Origin: an uncultured Latescibacterota bacterium
GTDB lineage: Bacteria; Latescibacterota; UBA2968
Length of the DNA: 64,000 nt
Reading direction: 5' to 3'
Assembly: GCA_951812755.1 (NCBI GenBank)
Contig: OX638329.1
Location: 5,355,563 to 5,419,562, forward strand
The position numbers and the translations under genes are program-made. Position 1 is the first letter of the stretch, and each line of letters starts with the position of its first letter. Below the pieces are notes generated by a model. The model was not told where the DNA came from and ran no database searches. It saw only the letters and a program-made list of their open reading frames with translations. Positions 2,541 through 21,228 of this stretch are shown piece by piece.

Positions 2541-3947
2541 ATGAGCACCCCCAATATAATTTTAATGATGTGTGACGACCTGGGATATGGCGATGTGGGA
2601 TTTAACGGGAATGAAGTGATCAAAACCCCAAATTTGGACCGCTTGGCGAACAATGGGATCCGGTTCACGCGATTTTATGCAGGAGGACCCGTGTGTTCCC
2701 CAACGCGAGGGACGTGTTTGACTGGACGGCATTATTTTCGATATGGCGTAACACATGCCAATCGCGGACACTTGCCCGCACAGGAAATAACACTGGCGCG
2801 AATGTTAAAATCCTTCGGCTATGCGACTGGACACTTTGGCAAATGGCATCTGGGAACACTGGACCCGAATTATTCGGGCAAGGCCAATCGCAATCCAGCG
2901 CGCAACTACGCCCCGCCGTGGGAGCGGGATTACGATGCATCTTTTGCCACGGAGTACGCGGTTCCCACCTGGGATCCGGTAGTAGATATTAACCAGAGAA
3001 CCGGAGAGCGACTGGACCGCCCCTGGGCCTCGCCCTATTACGAAAATGGAAAACTGGCAACGGAAAATCTGGAAGGATGCGACTCCCGGGTATTGATGGA
3101 TCGCGCAATTCCATTTATCGAACAGACTGTTGAAAATGGCGAGCAGTTCCTTACGACAATCTGGTTTCACGCACCGCATAGCCCGGTCGTTGCGGGACCG
3201 GAATATCGGGCAATGTACGCCGAGTACAGCGAGGATGAACAGCACTACTACGGCTGTATTACCGCTATAGACGATCAGGTGGGGCGATTATACCAAACCC
3301 TCGAAACACTGGGCGTAGCCGACAACACCATGATCTGGTTCTGTTCGGATAACGGCCCTGAAGGTCGCACAGGTCAAGACGGCCGCAACCGGGGATCAAC
3401 AGGCGGCTTGCGCGGGCGAAAACGATCTCTATTTGACGGCGGCGTGGGCGTACCCGCGTTATTGCACTGGCCGGGTCATGCAGAACCCGGGCGCACAGTG
3501 AAAATGCCGTGCAGTACACTGGATTACTTCCCGACAATCGCCGAGGTCATGGGATATGAAATGCCCGATGATCGCCCCATTGACGGAATTAGCCTAATAC
3601 CGACGATTGAGGGAAAAATGACAGAACGCCCCGCCCCCATTCCGTATCGGTTCAACAGTCCCAAAAACGCGATGTTTGGCGCCCCGACCATATCAATGAT
3701 CGACAATCGCTATAAATGCTTGACCAACCTATCGCGCGACGGCAGCGAAGATCTGTGTTTTGATATGATTGAAGACCGCGCAGAAACGACCAATTTGGCA
3801 AATGATCAACGAGAACGCATGGGACAAACTCGCGAGACCCTGCGCCAATGGCTCCGCTCCTGCGAAGCCAGCCACAACGGTGGGGATTACGACGAGGCAT
3901 TTGAACCGGTCGCGCCATTTGAAGAAGTCACCGGAGACTGGCGCTAA
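2541..3947 (+). CDS. Sulfatase (Cys-type, second paralog)
   Basis: 468 aa with the C-S-P-T-R-G-T-C-L-T-G signature, GKWH and CSDNGP motifs. Confidence 0.9.
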   Translation: MSTPNIILMMCDDLGYGDVGFNGNEVIKTPNLDRLANNGIRFTRFYAGGPVCSPTRGTCLTGRHYFRYGVTHANRGHLPAQEITLARMLKSFGYATGHFGKWHLGTLDPNYSGKANRNPARNYAPPWERDYDASFATEYAVPTWDPVVDINQRTGERLDRPWASPYYENGKLATENLEGCDSRVLMDRAIPFIEQTVENGEQFLTTIWFHAPHSPVVAGPEYRAMYAEYSEDEQHYYGCITAIDDQVGRLYQTLETLGVADNTMIWFCSDNGPEGRTGQDGRNRGSTGGLRGRKRSLFDGGVGVPALLHWPGHAEPGRTVKMPCSTLDYFPTIAEVMGYEMPDDRPIDGISLIPTIEGKMTERPAPIPYRFNSPKNAMFGAPTISMIDNRYKCLTNLSRDGSEDLCFDMIEDRAETTNLANDQRERMGQTRETLRQWLRSCEASHNGGDYDEAFEPVAPFEEVTGDWR

Positions 3948-3974
3948 AGAGAAAATAGAAATTAGAGGTACCGA

Positions 3975-5213
3975 ATGGCAACTCAATTTGGCGATGAACG
4001 CGATTGGTTTTTGGAAAAACGACTTGGTCTATTCGTCCATTGGGGAATTTACGCAATCCCCGGATGGCAAGAACAGCACCAGTGGCGCGGACGTATGCCC
4101 GCAAATGAATACGTGAAATTAGCCGAGCAATGGAATCCCACAAACTTCAACCCCGACGCGTGGTTAGATCTCGCAGAAGAAGCCGGGATGCAATACATCA
4201 TCGTCACAACCAAACACCACGATGGATTTTGCTTGTGGGACACATCACATACGGCATTCAACACAATGAATACGCCATATGGAAAAGACCTGATGGCAAT
4301 GCTCGCCGATGCCTGTCACAAACGCAACTTCCCCCTGGGCTTTTATTATTCAATTGCCGACTGGCACCACCCCAATTATCCCAATCAGGGACGACATCAC
4401 GAACTGCCCCAACCCAAGCCGGGAGATGATCCCGACTTGATGAAATATCTGGATTTTCTAAAGGCGCAAGTATGGGAATTGTGTACCCATTACGGAAAAT
4501 TGCACGCATTCTGGTGGGATATGAACGTGGATGAACACTTCGACCCATCCGTCAACGCGATGATTCGGTCACTACAACCCGCGGCAGTAATCAACAATCG
4601 GGGATTTGACCCCGGTGATTTTGGCACGCCCGAGCGCGATCATGTGCAAGGCATAGATACCCAACAGTCATTTGATCGGCTGACAGAAGCGTGTCAATCT
4701 GTCGGATTCGAAAGCTGGGGCTATCGGATAGATGAGGATTATTATACAGATCGCCATTTGATACGGAGCATCGATCGATATCTCGCGCGCGACGCAAACT
4801 ATTTGCTCAACGTAGGTCCCAAATCCGACGGCACAATTCCAGACGCATCCAGAGACATTTTGAAGCGCATTGGAAAATGGTATCACGCCATAGAAGAAGC
4901 GGTCAAAGACGTAGAACCGTCGTCGCACCTGACGCGCAATCGCGATATATTATTGACGCGCCGGGACAATGTGATCTACGTACATCTGGTAAACGATCCG
5001 CGAACAAGTGGCGTAAAACTCGACCCAATTGACGCCGCGCCAAAAAGTGCAACCTTACTAAACACAGGTGAACCTGTGGATTTCACCGTAGATCTGGTAC
5101 CGACCAATCACATAGAGCACAAACCCTATTTGCGATTACAGAACTTACCAGTAAATGAACTGGTCAACACGGTAATGGTGGTAAAACTCGAATTTGATGA
5201 AGTAATTGAATAA
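3975..5213 (+). CDS. Alpha-L-fucosidase, glycoside hydrolase family 29
   Basis: 412 aa. HHDGFCLWDT and WWD motifs and overall GH29 organisation. No obvious signal peptide. Confidence 0.85.
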   Translation: MATQFGDERDWFLEKRLGLFVHWGIYAIPGWQEQHQWRGRMPANEYVKLAEQWNPTNFNPDAWLDLAEEAGMQYIIVTTKHHDGFCLWDTSHTAFNTMNTPYGKDLMAMLADACHKRNFPLGFYYSIADWHHPNYPNQGRHHELPQPKPGDDPDLMKYLDFLKAQVWELCTHYGKLHAFWWDMNVDEHFDPSVNAMIRSLQPAAVINNRGFDPGDFGTPERDHVQGIDTQQSFDRLTEACQSVGFESWGYRIDEDYYTDRHLIRSIDRYLARDANYLLNVGPKSDGTIPDASRDILKRIGKWYHAIEEAVKDVEPSSHLTRNRDILLTRRDNVIYVHLVNDPRTSGVKLDPIDAAPKSATLLNTGEPVDFTVDLVPTNHIEHKPYLRLQNLPVNELVNTVMVVKLEFDEVIE

Positions 5214-5283
5214 AGTGCAAGGTGGGATGACTTAGGGTGTATTGTATTGCTGGCGAGCAAGGACTTGATATAACTCAGTACTA

Positions 5284-5394
5284 TTTCAAATAAGTCTCGT
5301 GTCTAAACCCACTGGACTCCGGCTTCCGCCGGAGTGACGAACGACAGTTGTCATTGCGGCAGGGGGTTAGCCGCAATCCAGTCTATCGAAAAAA
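5284..5394 (+). repeat. Repeat family A, copy 1 (about 110 bp, structured, non-coding)
   Basis: About 90% identical to the reverse complement of 20713-20824. Contains two conserved hairpin stems (ctccggc/gccggag and ttgcggc/gccgcaa) whose loops differ between the two copies. Confidence 0.8.
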
Positions 5395-5455
5395 CATATC
5401 AACAAATTTTTTTGACAGACCACTCAGAACTTCCTTGCAACATGTATCAAAACAG

Positions 5456-6505
5456 CTACTCATTCATTGTCTCCAACAGTCGGGCTATTTCCTGCGGTGA
5501 CGGCAACTGTCCTTCGAGTTCTTTTGGCAACTGCCTGCTGACACGGTAGGTTGCCACGCCAATGGGCTTTCGGGCATCGTGCAGAGCGTATTCGACCACG
5601 GTGCGGTTCTTTTCCTTACACAGGATGATACCGATGGATGGACCTTCACTCTCTTCGCGCACCTGTCGGTCGAGAGCAGTCAGGTAAAACTGCATTTTTC
5701 CCACGAACTCCGGTCGAAATTTTCCAACCTTCAGTTCAATTGCCACCAGGCAACGCAGGCGACGGTGGAACAAAAGCAAGTCAATAAAGAACTCCTCACC
5801 ACCTACCTCCAGCCGAAACTGGCTTCCCATGAAGGCAAACATCCCACCCATGGCACGCAGAAAGTCCTCAACACGGGCAATGAGAGCCGTTTCCAGTTCT
5901 CTTTCGCTGTGTTCATCGCCTAATCCGAGGAAGTCAAAAGTATATTCGTCTCGCACCGCCAGTTCAGCCTGTGCGCGGAGTTTTGGCGTCAGGGCCTGAT
6001 CGAAGTTAGTCTGTCCCAACAAGGACTTTTCATAACTCTGGTTCTCAATTTGATGTATAAGAACATTCTTCGTCCAGCCGAACTTGCGGGTCATGCGAAT
6101 ATAAAATTCCCGCTCCAGCGGATCCTTGCAGCGTCCCATTATGATCAAGTTCTTGGCCCAACTGATTTCTCCAACCAGCGGTTGGAGTTTTACATTTTCG
6201 TGGTATTCCAGAAAGAACTGCCGCATATACCACAGGTTCTGGGCAGAGTAACCCTGCATACCGGGAAACTCAGCCTGTAGGTCCGCGGCAAGTTGCTGTA
6301 CCACTGACTTTCCCCAACCTTCAACCTTTTGCCGCTCTGCGATCATCCGACCTATGTCCCAGTACAGACCGACCAATTCCTTATTCACTGCTTTGAGTGC
6401 CGCATATCGGGCAGCACGGACGCGCTCCTTTACTTCCGCAAGAAGACCTGCGTAATCTGGTGGTACATTTTTACTCATTGGCACTCTCCTCAATGTTATC
6501 GACAT
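5456..6505 (-). CDS. YhcG-like PDDEXK nuclease (DUF1016 family)
   Basis: 349 aa. N-terminal helical region and C-terminal PD-(D/E)xK core (…IELKVGKF…) characteristic of the DUF1016/YhcG family. Confidence 0.75.
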   Translation of the reverse strand: MSITLRRVPMSKNVPPDYAGLLAEVKERVRAARYAALKAVNKELVGLYWDIGRMIAERQKVEGWGKSVVQQLAADLQAEFPGMQGYSAQNLWYMRQFFLEYHENVKLQPLVGEISWAKNLIIMGRCKDPLEREFYIRMTRKFGWTKNVLIHQIENQSYEKSLLGQTNFDQALTPKLRAQAELAVRDEYTFDFLGLGDEHSERELETALIARVEDFLRAMGGMFAFMGSQFRLEVGGEEFFIDLLLFHRRLRCLVAIELKVGKFRPEFVGKMQFYLTALDRQVREESEGPSIGIILCKEKNRTVVEYALHDARKPIGVATYRVSRQLPKELEGQLPSPQEIARLLETMNE

Positions 6506-6745
6506 TTAATTTTTCTTGCTGAAACACGCCTACAACTGTTAGATTACTGCTGCCCAAATATCCAATGGTTAACCACAGACTACGATCAAAACAAAATATA
6601 ACATTTTGCGTGAAGAGGATGGCATAAATACAACTTGACGATCACTATATTTTCTTTGAAATGCGAGTCGGTACAATCTCATCGGCGTTTTTTGTACCCA
6701 GAAATATAAAACAATTTTGGAAAATAAAAATTGTGAAAGATCCCA

Positions 6746-6800
6746 AATGGCAACTTGATTTAGAAATGAACGCGATTGGTTTTTGAAAAAAAGCGTGATG
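6746..6800 (+). pseudogene. Remnant 5' end of a second alpha-L-fucosidase gene (about 55 bp, premature stop after 3 codons)
   Basis: atggcaacttgatttagaaatgaacgcgattggtttttgaaaaaaagcg aligns to the first roughly 55 nt of the GH29 gene at 3975 (atggcaactcaatttggcgatgaacgcgattggtttttggaaaaacga), with caa changed to tga. Confidence 0.7.
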
Positions 6801-6809
6801 GAGTGAAAC

Positions 6810-7769
6810 ATGATGACTATTAGATCAATAGTTCTATATAAAGCCTTTGAAAAGGCGAGGAGTTCGGCTAGCGCATCTGTCCAAACTCTCCTGGAACACA
6901 AGCACCTCTACCAGAGTGTTGAGGTGAACATTTCCGTGGACCGTGAAGAGGTCAAAAATTTGGTAGATATGGGTGACGAGTATGCTACTGAGGATCTCCT
7001 ATTTGTCGTTCCGAGAGGTCAGTATGATAAATACATTGATGCCGGATTGGACCACAGCCGCGAGACCTTAGAAGCGGTACCATGGCGTTTTTGGATTGAC
7101 CAGCCGGATCCAGGCGACATCAACTCTGCTTCACTGGAGTACAAATTTCTCGACATTCAGCTTCCCTATATCAAGGTTGCGTGTGATTTCTGCGACGACA
7201 CAGTTCAACCTCACAATCCTGTCCAAGTAAACGGACTGAAAGATGGGGTAGCCGCTGAATTGGGATCCCAGAAACAACTCTTTTTCTTTTCTTATCTGTG
7301 CCAGTCCTGCAAACGTGAAAGTGTGATTTACGTCGTAAGACGGGAAGGAAAGAGACTGACGATTGTAGGTAGAAGCCGCTTCGAATCTGTACCTATACCA
7401 AAAGCGATGAAGAAACTACCGGAGGCCCGACGATTCTATCGGAATGCGATAATCGCTTTCAACACTGGAAGAACCTTAGCATCACTGTTTTACCTGAGGA
7501 CCCTGATAGAGCAGTACTTCCGACGTGTTATCGCAGTGGATAATGACGAGAGAATTAGTGGAGAGGATCTTGCGAAGAGCTATCGGAAGCTACTGGATAA
7601 AGAATTCCCCATGAAATTTGACACTCTGGGAAACACCTACGACTCCTTGAGCGATGCCTTGCACGCAGCATGTGATGATGAGGAACTATACACCAGCGCA
7701 AGGGCCAACATCGAAAAACATTTTGAAGCCCTTGCTCGTCTCCCCATTTCACAGGCGGCTGGAGCGTGA
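6810..7769 (+). CDS. Hypothetical protein with a two-CxxC zinc-ribbon motif (CDFCDD … CQSCKRE) and a helical C-terminal region; possibly DUF4145-like
   Basis: 319-aa ORF preceded by an AT-rich intergenic region. Cys pairs are spaced as in zinc ribbons. Family assignment is tentative. Confidence 0.45.
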   Translation: MMTIRSIVLYKAFEKARSSASASVQTLLEHKHLYQSVEVNISVDREEVKNLVDMGDEYATEDLLFVVPRGQYDKYIDAGLDHSRETLEAVPWRFWIDQPDPGDINSASLEYKFLDIQLPYIKVACDFCDDTVQPHNPVQVNGLKDGVAAELGSQKQLFFFSYLCQSCKRESVIYVVRREGKRLTIVGRSRFESVPIPKAMKKLPEARRFYRNAIIAFNTGRTLASLFYLRTLIEQYFRRVIAVDNDERISGEDLAKSYRKLLDKEFPMKFDTLGNTYDSLSDALHAACDDEELYTSARANIEKHFEALARLPISQAAGA

Positions 7770-7798
7770 GTAGATGTCTGATACCTTCGGAGAAAATC

Positions 7799-20534: not shown

Positions 20535-20564
20535 AGCGCATCCTATAGGACCTATTCCCCTAAC

Positions 20565-20605
20565 CCCCTTCCCGTCTCGGGGAGGGGTCAGAATTATTTT
20601 TGAAA
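20565..20605 (+). terminator. Intrinsic terminator after the Fe-S oxidoreductase gene
   Basis: ccccttcccgtctcggggagggg hairpin followed by tcagaattattttt. Confidence 0.6.
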
Positions 20606-20712
20606 CAATTCAAAAAAAACTTGCATTTTAATACAAGTGTATTATATTAGTAATACAGTAATTCACTTATTGGAAAAATACCTCATTGGTCTTGCAAAAA
20701 AATCTGCTAACA

Positions 20713-20824
20713 TTTTTTCTAATAGACTGGATTGCGGCTTAAAGCATGCCGCAATGACAACCGTCGTTCGTCACTCCGGCGCAGGCCGGAGTCCAGTGGA
20801 TTTAGACACGAAACTTATTTGAAA
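20713..20824 (-). repeat. Repeat family A, copy 2 (inverted relative to copy 1)
   Basis: Reverse complement matches 5284-5394. Both stems are conserved while the loops differ (ttcc vs gcag; agggggtta vs ttaaagcat). Ends 9 bp before the gntR start codon. Confidence 0.8.
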
Positions 20825-20832
20825 GACCACTC

Positions 20833-21228
20833 ATGTTGATCTCAATTGACCATCACAATGGCATACCCGTTTTTCGTCAGATCATCGACCAGGTGAAATT
20901 TCACGTAGTCAGCGGGCTACTCGCGCCGGGTGATGAACTGCCCTCGACCCGTGCATTATCGGGACAACTGGGACTCAACCCAATGACAGTGAGCAAAGCG
21001 TACAGCTTATTGGAAGCAGAGGGATTGGTAGAGCGGCGGCGCGGACGACCCTTAACCGTAAAACCCTTACGAGATCAGACCGTACACGCCGAAAAACTGG
21101 CACAACTCAAACCACAACTCACACAATTGGCAACAATGGTTCGGCAGTTGGGGGTTGATCGGGCGGAAGTCGTAGATCTTTTTCTCTCCATCTTAGATAC
21201 CCTGGAGGAAGACAATGATGGCACATGA
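20833..21228 (+). CDS. GntR-family transcriptional regulator (short, YtrA-like)
   Basis: 131 aa with the N-terminal winged HTH motif LPSTRALSGQLGLNPMTVSKAYSLLEAEGLVERRRG. Confidence 0.85.
   Translation: MLISIDHHNGIPVFRQIIDQVKFHVVSGLLAPGDELPSTRALSGQLGLNPMTVSKAYSLLEAEGLVERRRGRPLTVKPLRDQTVHAEKLAQLKPQLTQLATMVRQLGVDRAEVVDLFLSILDTLEEDNDGT

What the first reader, a model, noticed from the sequence alone, without database searches (positions are those of the whole stretch)
5284..5394. Repeat family A: 110-bp structured element present in two inverted copies, with conserved stems and divergent loops
5284-5394 and 20713-20824 (reverse strand) share about 90% identity. Where they differ, the differences fall in the loops of two hairpins (ctccggc-NNNN-gccggag and ttgcggc-N9-gccgcaa) while the stems stay perfectly complementary. 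That pattern is expected for selection on secondary structure, so this could be a small RNA, a REP-like protein-binding element or a transcription attenuator. No TIR or TSD is evident, so it differs from family B. Copy 2 ends 9 bp before the gntR start codon.
Basis: seen in the sequence. Interest (0 to 1): 0.55.

Follow-up and report, generated by a model that had tools for sequence, protein, structure and literature searches.

The report
Small non-coding transposon with conserved hairpins
The two "structured" repeats are copies of a 144-bp miniature transposon (MITE) moved by an IS630-family transposase. One copy landed 2 bases upstream of a gntR start codon. This is an ordinary kind of mobile DNA, but its core is an unusual pair of hairpins whose stems stay complementary.

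Summary
They differ at 23 positions, and none of these falls in the 54 stem positions (P about 6e-6).

- Each copy has about 13-16-bp terminal inverted repeats and a 5-bp target duplication (CTCAG and ATGAG).
- Two related metagenomic contigs that encode the identical GntR protein carry the precise empty site.
- A Latescibacteria MAG chromosome (OX638317.1) has at least 5 more copies. It also has a 1214-bp IS630-family insertion sequence whose two ends match the two ends of the element.

So this is a MITE, the same kind of element as pneumococcal RUP, mobilised in trans.

The core is two inverted hairpin modules of the form GTCA-stem-loop-stem-TCCAG. Across 12 module variants, 4 of the 7 stem pairs change on both sides and stay Watson-Crick. 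The same module also sits in a second MITE family with different ends. Stem complementarity is therefore maintained, probably at the DNA level, since both strands fold equally well and no G-U pairs occur.

There is no Rfam match and no promoter or terminator signal. I found nothing that supports an sRNA or an attenuator. Verdict: a new member of a known kind, of modest interest.

The parts
5274..5278 (+). Left target-site duplication of copy W1 (CTCAG)
   Evidence: Identical 5-mer at 5423-5427.
5279..5422 (+). MITE copy W1, 144 bp. Its ends are chimeric: the left end TACTATTTCAAATAAG is type 1, the right end TTTGACAGACCA is type 2.
   Evidence: Alignment with 6 other copies; nhmmer E = 3.7e-47.
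5279..5294 (+). W1 left terminal inverted repeat. It resembles the right (IRR) end of the IS630-family IS.
   Evidence: TIR pattern search; IS ends.
5311..5382 (+). W1 hairpin core, predicted to form a four-way junction. Closing helix ACTGGA/TCCAGT (5311-5316 with 5377-5382); hairpin 1 at 5317-5334; linker hairpin at 5335-5353; hairpin 2 at 5354-5376. It consists of two inverted GTCA-stem-loop-stem-TCCAG modules.
   Evidence: The DNA fold gives exactly this structure, z = -4.3; RNA fold; module scan.
5407..5422 (+). W1 right terminal inverted repeat. It resembles the left (IRL) end of the IS.
5423..5427 (+). Right target-site duplication of W1 (CTCAG)
20682..20686 (-). Target-site duplication of copy W2 (ATGAG on the - strand, CTCAT on +), distal copy
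   Evidence: Empty site ATACCTCATGTTGATC in L001 and L002.
20687..20829 (-). MITE copy W2, 143 bp, type 2 ends (TGGTC...GACCA). It lies between the gntR promoter/operator region and the gntR start codon.
   Evidence: nhmmer E = 3.4e-48.
20830..20834 (-). Target-site duplication of W2, proximal copy. It overlaps the first two bases of the gntR ATG (20833-20835).
20833..21228 (+). gntR-family regulator gene (131 aa) whose 5' leader received the W2 insertion. This is context, not part of the element.
   Evidence: Pfam GntR, E = 3.7e-16. The identical protein is encoded in two contigs that lack the insertion.
5215..7788 (.). A 2.57-kb strain-specific island that contains W1. This is context.
   Evidence: Absent from the closest relative L067, which is 96% identical on both sides.

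Best explanation
Both copies are a miniature inverted-repeat transposable element (MITE) of about 144 bp. It encodes nothing and is moved in trans by the transposase of an IS630-family insertion sequence that recognises its terminal inverted repeats.

Shown:
- The element carries 13-16-bp TIRs (T[A/G][C/G]TCTTTCAAA...).
- It is flanked by 5-bp duplications of an nTnAG target.
- At gntR the insertion is precise. Related contigs have the uninterrupted target.
- A 1214-bp IS has the same termini. The MITE's left end matches the IS right end over about 20 nt, and the MITE's right end matches the IS left end over about 15 nt. The IS makes the same kind of 5-bp duplications.
- That IS is present, in near-identical and therefore recently active copies, in a genome that holds at least 5 MITE copies.

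Inferred:
- The element moves by cut-and-paste, using transposase supplied from elsewhere in the genome. No transposase lies in this 64-kb window.
- The roughly 72-bp interior is not IS-derived. It is a head-to-head pair of REP-like hairpin modules (GTCA, 7-bp stem, loop, stem, TCCAG) that can fold or extrude into a four-way junction on either strand.
- Stem complementarity is maintained (compensated changes among module variants), while loops and the A/T-rich spacers drift.
- My preferred reading is a DNA-level constraint on the element. The cruciform or hairpin could act as a built-in hinge that lets the two ends of a 144-bp element synapse, or as a protein recognition site. Palindrome-templated correction may also contribute. 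I do not favour a host RNA function.
- At gntR the insertion adds a 148-nt leader that is predicted to be tightly folded and abuts the start codon. This probably alters gntR expression rather than creating a regulator.
For: - TIRs and TSDs appear in the 7-copy alignment. TSD pairs are CTCAG/CTCAG (W1), ATGAG/ATGAG (W2), TTAAG/TTAAG (L037), CTGAG/CTGAG (L018), GTCAG/ATCAG (L036) and ATAAG/ATAAG (L062).
- Empty site: L001 and L002 read ...ATACCTCATGTTGATC..., where the window reads ATACCTCAT[143 bp]CTCATGTTGATC. Both encode the identical GntR protein.
- Autonomous partner: a 1214-bp element at L018 418-1631 and L049 3744-4957 (0 differences between them) and at L070 (97%). Its orfA has HTH_32/HTH_23/HTH_29 and its orfB has DDE_3. 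Both ORFs match NCBIfam NF033545, IS630 family transposase, covering profile positions 2-107 and 130-299. An A8 slippery run sits at the ORF junction.
- IS TSDs are CTGAG, TTTAG, CTGAG, CTTAG and ATAAG.
- A variant IS (L061/L062) has TGGTC...GACCA ends, which match the type 2 MITE ends.
- There are 8 full copies in 3 genomes. The arrangement TSD-IS-TSD-MITE-TSD occurs at three loci.
- Only the TIR helix covaries among full copies.
- The hairpin modules are a distinct class. Of 90 stretches bounded by GTCA and TCCA, 15 had 7/7 stem pairs and 1 had 6/7; these 16 are the modules. The other 74 had 5 or fewer.
- Among 12 distinct modules, 4 of 7 stem pairs change on both sides and 98.8% of cells are paired. 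The covariation score is 0.511 against 0.165 in shuffles (0 of 500 reach it), and no one-sided (G-U) changes occur.
- Both strands fold equally well as DNA: -26.1 and -26.2 kcal/mol, z = -4.3 and -4.7.
- There is no Rfam, tRNA, promoter or terminator signal.
Against: - No transposase homologue lies in the window. Mobilisation in this genome is inferred from relatives.
- IS630-family elements classically duplicate TA (RUP/IS630-Spn1, PMC2229807). Here the duplication is 5 bp. Three more distant IS copies show only 4-bp matches (GTAC, ATAT, CTAT), so the cut geometry is not fully settled.
- W1 and the L018 MITE have mismatched end types yet intact TSDs. Either the transposase tolerates both end types or the copies recombine.
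- Only 8 full copies could be collected. The metagenome scan with a 20-specified-base pattern gave only a chance hit.
- The proposed role of the hairpins (hinge, protein site or templated correction) is untested. The roughly five compensatory events involve paralogous modules, not orthologous copies.
- No empty site could be obtained for W1, because it lies in a 2.57-kb strain-specific island.
Confidence: 0.93

Rival explanations
1. The element is a structured non-coding RNA gene or a cis-regulatory leader (sRNA, riboswitch or attenuator), and its stems are kept by selection on the RNA fold.
For: The predicted folds are stable (RNA z = -3.2 and -3.6). Stems are conserved and loops vary. Modules show compensatory changes. 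W2 lies in the gntR leader.
Against: No Rfam family matches at gathering or permissive thresholds. No promoter-like site and no hairpin-plus-T-run terminator is found in either copy. The two copies have opposite orientation and unrelated contexts: W1 lies between convergent genes inside an island, and W2 is antisense to that orientation within a 5' leader. Relatives with the identical GntR protein lack the element altogether. TIRs, TSDs and an autonomous IS explain its presence. No G-U pairs occur in 84 stem cells, and both strands fold equally, which fits a DNA palindrome rather than an RNA.
Confidence: 0.03
2. The hairpin core is an independent REP/REPIN-like unit: two inverted REP-like palindromes recognised by their own protein, for example a RAYT-type HUH transposase or a site-specific recombinase. 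This unit was captured by, or inserted into, the IS630-type MITE. Under this reading stem conservation reflects that protein's requirements, not those of the IS630 transposase.
For: - The same hairpin 2 module (33 nt, 97% identical) lies inside a second MITE family with different TIRs (ACGYSATGTGTGACTT) and an 8-bp TSD (L066).
- The module pair occurs without IS630-type TIRs in L061.
- A Chloroflexota MAG has 7 related hairpins (GTCAyTCCsGCGAAAGCsGGArTCC) in 8 kb, one sharing a 36-nt exact match.
- The flanks GTCA and TCCAG are conserved while the stems covary, as in REPs.
- The interior is absent from the IS.
Against: No RAYT or other candidate protein was identified, and the genome was not searched for one. 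In the window and the related loci the modules occur only inside MITE-like repeats, not as the hundreds of free intergenic copies typical of REPs. The whole element, not the core, is what is duplicated with TSDs. Module sharing could result from recombination between MITEs.
Confidence: 0.25
3. The stems are perfect not because of any function but because quasi-palindromes are self-correcting. Intramolecular template switching during replication copies one arm from the other. On this view the element is a purely neutral, decaying MITE.
For: All stem variants are strictly Watson-Crick, with no one-sided intermediates. Full-length copies show only uncompensated breaks in the internal helices (2 events) and no compensation, as expected if correction is occasional. 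Quasipalindrome-templated mutation is an established mechanism (my own knowledge, not checked in a paper here).
Against: The unpaired flanks GTCA and TCCAG and the linker are also strongly conserved, and arm-to-arm templating does not explain that. Over 7 copies, 2 of 40 stem columns vary against 27 of 62 non-stem, non-TIR columns (Fisher P = 1.2e-5). That implies overall constraint, not only symmetry.
Confidence: 0.15
4. Copy W2 has been domesticated as a regulatory module of the gntR-ABC transporter operon, for example as a leader structure that occludes the ribosome-binding region.
For: The insertion sits between the promoter/operator-like palindrome (TGTATTA-N8-TAATACA, 20628-20649) and the ATG. 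In the predicted leader fold the TIR stem sequesters the purine-rich GAAAGACCA just upstream of the start codon. The GntR protein sequence is intact and identical to that in contigs without the insertion.
Against: The insertion is polymorphic among close relatives and therefore recent. An identical protein across contigs shows only that the gene is not yet decayed. There are no expression data. The same element sits in a non-regulatory position at W1.
Confidence: 0.1

Closest known systems
RUP (repeat unit of pneumococcus), the MITE mobilised by IS630-Spn1 (Oggioni & Claverys 1999, as reviewed in PMC2229807)
   Same: Both are non-coding elements of about 100-150 bp. Their TIRs match those of an IS630-family IS in the same genomes, they have target duplications, and they are intergenic. 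RUP is reported to land at or near IS elements (PMC2229807). Here the MITE sits directly next to the IS at three loci.
   Different: RUP duplicates TA, whereas this element duplicates 5 bp at nTnAG. There is no sequence similarity and the host phylum differs (Latescibacteria-like). This interior is a pair of GC-rich REP-like hairpins that form a four-way junction, not a simple end-to-end stem.
Correia elements / NEMIS of Neisseria
   Same: Both are MITEs with TIRs and TSDs that are often co-transcribed with neighbouring genes. Correia elements have a functional internal DNA motif (an IHF bending site in the 155-bp form, PMC2229807) that is not needed for coding. That is analogous to the proposed hinge role of the hairpin core.
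   Different: Correia elements have 24-26-bp TIRs, a TA duplication, no identified autonomous partner, and outward promoters and RNase III sites (from my own knowledge). None of these is seen here.
REP / BIME / REPIN elements mobilised by RAYT (TnpA_REP) transposases
   Same: The core is two inverted copies of a short palindrome with conserved unpaired flanking bases and covarying stems, separated by a short spacer. This matches the layout of a REP doublet (REPIN).
   Different: The unit that moves here has TIRs and makes TSDs, which REPs and REPINs do not. No RAYT was identified. The conserved flank is GTCA/TCCAG, not the GTAG-type tetranucleotide. The copy number seen is low.
Neisserial dRS3-type hairpins (ATTCCC-N8-GGGAAT) and similar GTCATTCCCGCGAAAGCGGGAATCC hairpins seen in many genomes
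   Same: The architecture is the same: (GTC)ATTCC-GC-loop-GC-GGAATCC. The Chloroflexota locus L017 carries this form next to a 36-nt exact match to hairpin 1 of the element. The string ATTCCCGCGAAAGCGGGAAT occurs in a Neisseria gonorrhoeae paper (PMC7593972).
   Different: The link to dRS3 is a recollection, not a test. The stems here (TTGCGGC, CTCCGGC, CGCCTGC) differ in sequence, and no associated recombinase was examined.

Membership tests
Bacterial MITE (non-autonomous TIR transposon) | Small size (under about 300 bp) and no coding capacity | tested here: met
   143-144 bp. Only unconserved ORFs cross it. The element varies by indels and loop changes.
Bacterial MITE (non-autonomous TIR transposon) | Terminal inverted repeats | tested here: met
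   T[A/G][C/G]TCTTTCAAA... at both ends. The TIR helix is 88% paired over 7 copies, with both-sided changes at positions 2 and 3.
Bacterial MITE (non-autonomous TIR transposon) | Target-site duplications that differ between copies | tested here: met
   Five perfect 5-bp pairs (CTCAG, ATGAG, TTAAG, CTGAG, ATAAG) and one 4/5 pair. Two copies (L044, L049) are degenerate or truncated.
Bacterial MITE (non-autonomous TIR transposon) | Filled and empty site polymorphism | tested here: met
   W2 against L001 and L002 shows a precise 148-bp difference, equal to the element plus one TSD. W1 could not be tested because it lies in a strain-specific island.
Bacterial MITE (non-autonomous TIR transposon) | Ends shared with an autonomous IS encoding a transposase | tested here: met
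   A 1214-bp IS in L018, L049 and L070, with variants in L055-L066. The MITE's left end equals IRR for about 20 nt, and its right end equals IRL for about 15 nt.
IS630/Tc1-mariner-derived element (RUP-like) | Partner transposase belongs to the IS630 family (HTH plus DDE_3) | tested here: met
   Pfam HTH_32/23/29 and DDE_3 (E = 6e-21). NCBIfam NF033545 is matched by both ORFs at 66 and 111 bits. The family cut-off of 100 applies to the whole protein, so the N-terminal ORF alone falls below it.
IS630/Tc1-mariner-derived element (RUP-like) | Insertion at TA with a 2-bp TA duplication | tested here: not met
   The W2 target CTCATG contains no TA, and the duplication is 5 bp. IS copies give CTGAG, TTTAG, CTTAG and ATAAG. 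Only three distant IS copies are compatible with a TA reading.
REP / REPIN (RAYT-mobilised) | Short palindrome with conserved flanking bases, occurring as inverted doublets | tested here: met
   GTCA, 7-bp stem, loop, stem, TCCAG, with two inverted copies 11 nt apart.
REP / REPIN (RAYT-mobilised) | No TIRs and no target duplication | tested here: not met
   The mobile unit has both.
REP / REPIN (RAYT-mobilised) | Associated RAYT (Y1 HUH) gene, and hundreds of free intergenic copies | not tested
   Only 64 kb plus fetched loci were available. In 223 kb the modules were seen only inside MITE-like repeats. No genome-wide protein scan was possible.
Known structured RNA (Rfam family, riboswitch or attenuator) | Match to a curated covariance model | tested here: not met
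   There were 0 matches at gathering score for the window. The best permissive hit was FtrB at 22 bits against a gathering score of 66.
Known structured RNA (Rfam family, riboswitch or attenuator) | Own promoter or intrinsic terminator, and a fixed orientation relative to the regulated gene | tested here: not met
   There were 0 promoter-like and 0 terminator-like sites around both copies. The copies lie in unrelated contexts and orientations.

The most novel reading that the evidence does not exclude
The GTCA-stem-loop-stem-TCCAG hairpin is an independently maintained structural cassette. It would be a REP-like DNA (or RNA) module that moves between, or is repeatedly captured by, unrelated MITE families, and that has relatives in other phyla (Chloroflexota, Neisseria-type dRS3 hairpins). 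It would be recognised by a protein not yet identified. The IS630-type MITE would then be a vehicle for it. This would also be an IS630-family clade that makes 5-bp nTnAG duplications instead of TA duplications.
Probability: 0.2. Interest if true: 0.55.

Novelty: new member of a known kind. Interest (0 to 1): 0.3.

Why it matters
For annotation, these two loci should be labelled as MITE insertions, not as candidate sRNAs or riboswitches.

For the organism's biology:
- The MITE and its IS are recently active in this Latescibacteria-like lineage. The evidence is identical IS copies and an insertion polymorphism between contigs that encode the identical GntR protein.
- One insertion separates a GntR/ABC-transporter operon's start codon from its promoter and operator by a 148-nt structured leader. 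This is a natural experiment on MITE effects on expression.

Two features would interest transposon specialists:
- An IS630-family element that duplicates 5 bp at nTnAG rather than TA.
- A covarying REP-like hairpin module shared by two MITE families with different ends.

Neither feature changes the basic classification.

Tried and rejected
- Rfam at gathering score over the whole window, and at E up to 10 over 5150-5550: nothing credible.
- ARAGORN on the window: no tRNA or tmRNA, so the cloverleaf-like core is not tRNA-derived by that test.
- Promoter and terminator consensus scans around both copies: none found.
- Genome-contig scan with GCCGGAGTGACGAACGAC: 51 loci. 45 are chance matches, mostly in apparent coding sequence. 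Five are real copies in OX638317.1, and one is a related hairpin in a Chloroflexota MAG.
- Metagenome-contig scan with GACGAACGACNGTTGTCATTG: one chance hit in what appears to be coding sequence.
- Viral-contig scan for the hairpin 2 module: 0 hits.
- tblastn of the IS transposase against the window: no homologue.
- nhmmer profile of 6 copies against the window and 23 related loci: no additional diverged full copies.
- Empty site for W1: the exact fucosidase protein is not on record. Orthologous loci in L067-L069 show that W1 lies inside a 2.57-kb island absent from relatives, so no clean empty site exists.
- A TA (2-bp) or TNA (3-bp) reading of the duplications was considered and rejected for the MITE. 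The first base of the 5-mer varies between insertions yet matches on both sides, and the W2 target has no TA.
- Composite transposition of IS plus MITE was considered and rejected. In all three tandems the internal 5-mer equals both outer 5-mers.
- Literature searches for IS630 with 5-bp or CTNAG duplications found nothing relevant.
- One look-up of a cluster member (P0244) found nothing.

Full report
**1. Observation**

The two stretches exist as described and are inverted relative to each other. A pattern of 33 specified bases covering hairpin 1 and the linker occurs exactly twice in the window, against 0 expected in 100 dinucleotide-preserving shuffles. The repeat finder lists the pair as I2 (5277-5394 and 20714-20831, 86%).

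With flanks, the units are 5279-5422 (+, W1) and 20687-20829 (-, W2).

W1 and W2 differ at 23 of 144 aligned columns. None of these lies in the 54 columns of the four predicted internal helices (P = 5.9e-6). All 8 differences within the 72-column core lie in its 18 unpaired columns (P = 3.7e-6).

**2. What it is**

A scan of GTDB species representatives with the 18-mer GCCGGAGTGACGAACGAC gave 51 loci.
- 45 are chance matches, mostly in apparent coding sequence.
- Five lie in one chromosome, OX638317.1, labelled an uncultured Latescibacteria MAG. These are full-length copies at 82-95% identity.

- Every copy starts with T[A/G][C/G]T[C/A]TTTCAAATAAG and ends with the inverted TTTG[A/C][A/C/G][A/G]GA[G/C][T/C]A.
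- Similarity stops exactly there.
- Each copy is bracketed by a different 5-bp direct repeat: CTCAG (W1), ATGAG (W2), TTAAG (L037), CTGAG (L018) and GTCAG/ATCAG (L036).

Two ENA contigs encode a GntR protein 100% identical to the window's but have a much shorter upstream spacer. They read ...GAATACCTCATGTTGATC..., where the window reads ...AAATACCTCAT[143 bp]CTCATGTTGATC.... This is a precise empty site. The difference of 148 bp equals the element plus one 5-bp duplication.

A TIR search of the fetched loci revealed a 1214-bp element with the same ends at L018 418-1631 and L049 3744-4957. The two copies are identical, and a third copy at 97% identity lies in L070.
- It has two overlapping-frame ORFs: HTH_32/HTH_23/HTH_29, then DDE_3. 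Both match NCBIfam NF033545, IS630 family transposase.
- The ORFs are joined by an A8 slippery run.
- Reading inward, the IS right end (TACTCTGTCAAATAAGTTTATT) matches the MITE's left end for about 20 nt. The IS left end (TACTCTGTCAAAAAAGATATTTG) matches the MITE's right end for about 15 nt. The MITE interior has no counterpart in the IS.
- The IS makes the same 5-bp duplications: CTGAG, TTTAG, CTGAG, CTTAG and ATAAG.

A variant IS at 83% identity (L061/L062) has TGGTC...GACCA ends. These are the second end type seen in W2, L044 and half of W1 and L018. An eighth, more diverged MITE copy lies next to that variant IS in L062.

The element is therefore a MITE of an IS630-family IS. The window itself contains no transposase homologue, so mobilisation must be in trans from elsewhere in the genome. 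This last step is an inference.

**3. The stems and loops**

Among the seven full copies, the loop variants co-occur as subfamilies: TTCC with AGGGGGTTA, and CTGC or CTAC with ATGCTTTAA or ATGGTTTTA. Both subfamilies are present in both genomes. The W1/W2 loop differences are therefore inherited subfamily markers, not independent local changes.

Counting pairs on that alignment gives the following.
- 25 of the 27 internal pairs never vary.
- 2 pairs vary only by uncompensated breaks (L037 in hairpin 1, L036 in the closing helix).
- The only both-sided changes are in the TIR helix.

So full copies give no covariation support, only conservation. That conservation is nevertheless significant. Excluding the 18 columns fixed by my search pattern, 2 of 40 stem columns vary against 27 of 62 non-stem, non-TIR columns (Fisher P = 1.2e-5).

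The picture changes at the level of the hairpin module. The core is two inverted copies of one module, GTCA + 7-bp stem + loop + stem' + TCCAG(T):

[ACTGGA-CTCCGGC-TTCC-GCCGGAG-TGAC] GAACGACNGTT [GTCA-TTGCGGC-N9-GCCGCAA-TCCAGT]

I scanned 223 kb of related sequence for GTCA-N17-26-TCCA without requiring any pairing.
- There were 90 hits. Of these, 15 had 7/7 stem pairs and 1 had 6/7; these 16 are the modules.
- The other 74 had 5 or fewer pairs.

The real modules have four stem types: CTCCGGC, TTGCGGC, CGCCTGC (L062, L061) and TCGCGGC (L061). In an alignment of the 12 distinct modules:
- 4 of 7 pairs change on both sides and 98.8% of cells are paired.
- The covariation score is 0.511 against 0.165 in shuffles (0 of 500 reach it).
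- Slid controls give 20-45% paired.
- There are no one-sided (G-U) changes.

The caveat is that these are few events (about five) among paralogous modules.

The same hairpin 2 module (33 nt, 97% identical) also lies in a second MITE family in L066, with different TIRs (ACGYSATGTGTGACTT) and an 8-bp TSD. The module pair occurs without IS630-type TIRs in L061. A Chloroflexota MAG locus (L017) has seven related hairpins (GTCAyTCCsGCGAAAGCsGGArTCC) in 8 kb, one with a 36-nt exact match to hairpin 1.

**4. How it most likely works**

Shown: the element inserts at nTnAG with a 5-bp duplication and shares its ends with an IS630-family IS.

Inferred: it moves by cut-and-paste using that transposase.

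The internal hairpins are not IS-derived, and both strands fold equally well as single-stranded DNA. The energies are -26.1 and -26.2 kcal/mol, with z = -4.3 and -4.7. The + strand minimum-energy fold is exactly the four-way junction. Three points lead me to favour a DNA-level constraint over an RNA one:
- the strictly Watson-Crick stems;
- the inverted arrangement of the two modules;
- the lack of a consistent transcriptional context.

Candidate roles, all untested, are:
- a cruciform or hinge that helps the two ends of a sub-persistence-length element to synapse (compare the IHF site of Correia elements, PMC2229807);
- recognition by a separate REP-type protein;
- maintenance by palindrome-templated correction.

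At gntR, the insertion lies between a promoter/operator-like region (TTGCAT...; palindrome TGTATTA-N8-TAATACA at 20628-20649) and the ATG. The predicted leader folds into a closed multibranch structure whose TIR stem includes the purine-rich bases just upstream of the start codon. An effect on translation is plausible but is only an inference.

**5. Alternatives**

An sRNA, riboswitch or attenuator is unsupported.
- There is no Rfam match, no tRNA-like call, and no promoter or terminator consensus.
- The two copies lie in different contexts and orientations.
- The element is absent from contigs that encode the identical GntR protein.

A pure REP/REPIN reading fails on TIRs and TSDs, but it remains a reasonable description of the core.

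**6. Comparison and novelty**

The closest known element is pneumococcal RUP with IS630-Spn1 (PMC2229807). RUP also tends to sit at or near IS copies. Here three loci show TSD-IS-TSD-MITE-TSD with the same 5-mer three times. This indicates re-use of the target next to an existing element rather than composite transposition.

The differences from RUP are the 5-bp nTnAG duplication instead of TA, and the REP-like hairpin cargo. The TA feature of the IS630 family was tested here and not met. Three distant IS copies are ambiguous, with 4-bp matches or a possible TA reading. Literature searches found no description of such an IS630 clade or of this MITE, but ISfinder could not be consulted.

Verdict: a new member of a known kind. 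The finding is real but ordinary in class. Two side features, the TSD length and the shared covarying hairpin module, are worth a specialist's follow-up.

**7. Limits**

- Only 8 full copies from 3 genomes were obtainable. The contig look-ups and collection scans are exhausted.
- No empty site could be obtained for W1, because it lies in a 2.57-kb island absent from the closest relative, which is 96% identical on both sides.
- The organism label rests on one MAG title.

Noticed in passing
window 5215-7788: A 2.57-kb strain-specific island replaces 7 bp of the closest relative (L067, 96% identical on both sides). It carries MITE W1, a YhcG/DUF1016 PD-(D/E)XK gene (5456-6505, -), a remnant copy of the fucosidase 5' end (6720-6791, similar to 3957-4019; repeat D9) and a 319-aa ORF (6810-7769).
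   Followed up: partly
L018 418-1631, L049 3744-4957, L070 9428-10640, L058 9420-10640, L062 3137-4356: An IS630-family IS (1214 bp, two ORFs joined at an A8 slippery run) is flanked by 5-bp duplications (CTGAG, TTTAG, CTGAG, CTTAG, ATAAG) rather than the canonical TA. More distant copies (L061, L064/L065, L066) show only 4-bp matches (GTAC, ATAT, CTAT) that could also be read as TA with a 1-nt longer TIR.
   Followed up: partly
L018 413-1785, L049 3573-4962, L062 3132-4515: At three independent loci in two samples, the IS and the MITE sit head-to-head (IRR ends abutting), separated by the same 5-mer that flanks both outer ends. This implies repeated insertion into the target duplication of an existing element.
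   Followed up: partly
L066 about 6583-6783 (-), L049 about 3550-3580: A second MITE family of about 200 bp (TIR ACGYSATGTGTGACTT, 8-bp TSD TATTCTAA) carries the same hairpin 2 module as the studied element. One of its ends also truncates the right end of the L049 MITE copy.
   Followed up: partly
L017 1143-1209, 2257-2392, 5939-5963, 6821-6962 (Chloroflexota MAG OZ244775.1): Seven hairpins of the form GTCAyTCCsGCGAAAGCsGGArTCC occur in 8 kb, including a 36-nt exact match to hairpin 1 plus the linker of the element. This suggests a widespread REP-like hairpin class. A similar string appears in a Neisseria paper (PMC7593972).
   Followed up: partly
L036 6673-6717 and L049 (homologous position): A 45-nt insertion (23 nt in L049) lies inside the 3' side of hairpin 2, between GCCGC and AATCCAGT, and ends in ...GCCAGT. 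Two copies at different loci share it, so it marks a third subfamily that transposed after acquiring the insertion.
   Followed up: no
window 20541-20610: An indel of about 70 bp containing a GC-rich hairpin (CCCCTTCCCGTCTCGGGGAGGGG) lies downstream of the 704-aa LUD/Fe-S gene. It is present in the window and L002 and absent in L001. It may be another small mobile or terminator-like element.
   Followed up: no
It sits between two diverged tandem copies (75-87%) of the ABC-transporter and membrane-protein genes downstream of gntR.
   Followed up: no
window 20612-20680: A promoter-like TTGCAT and a perfect palindrome TGTATTA-N8-TAATACA lie upstream of the MITE insertion. They are conserved in L001 and L002. 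The palindrome is probably the GntR autoregulatory operator, now 148 bp further from the start codon.
   Followed up: no
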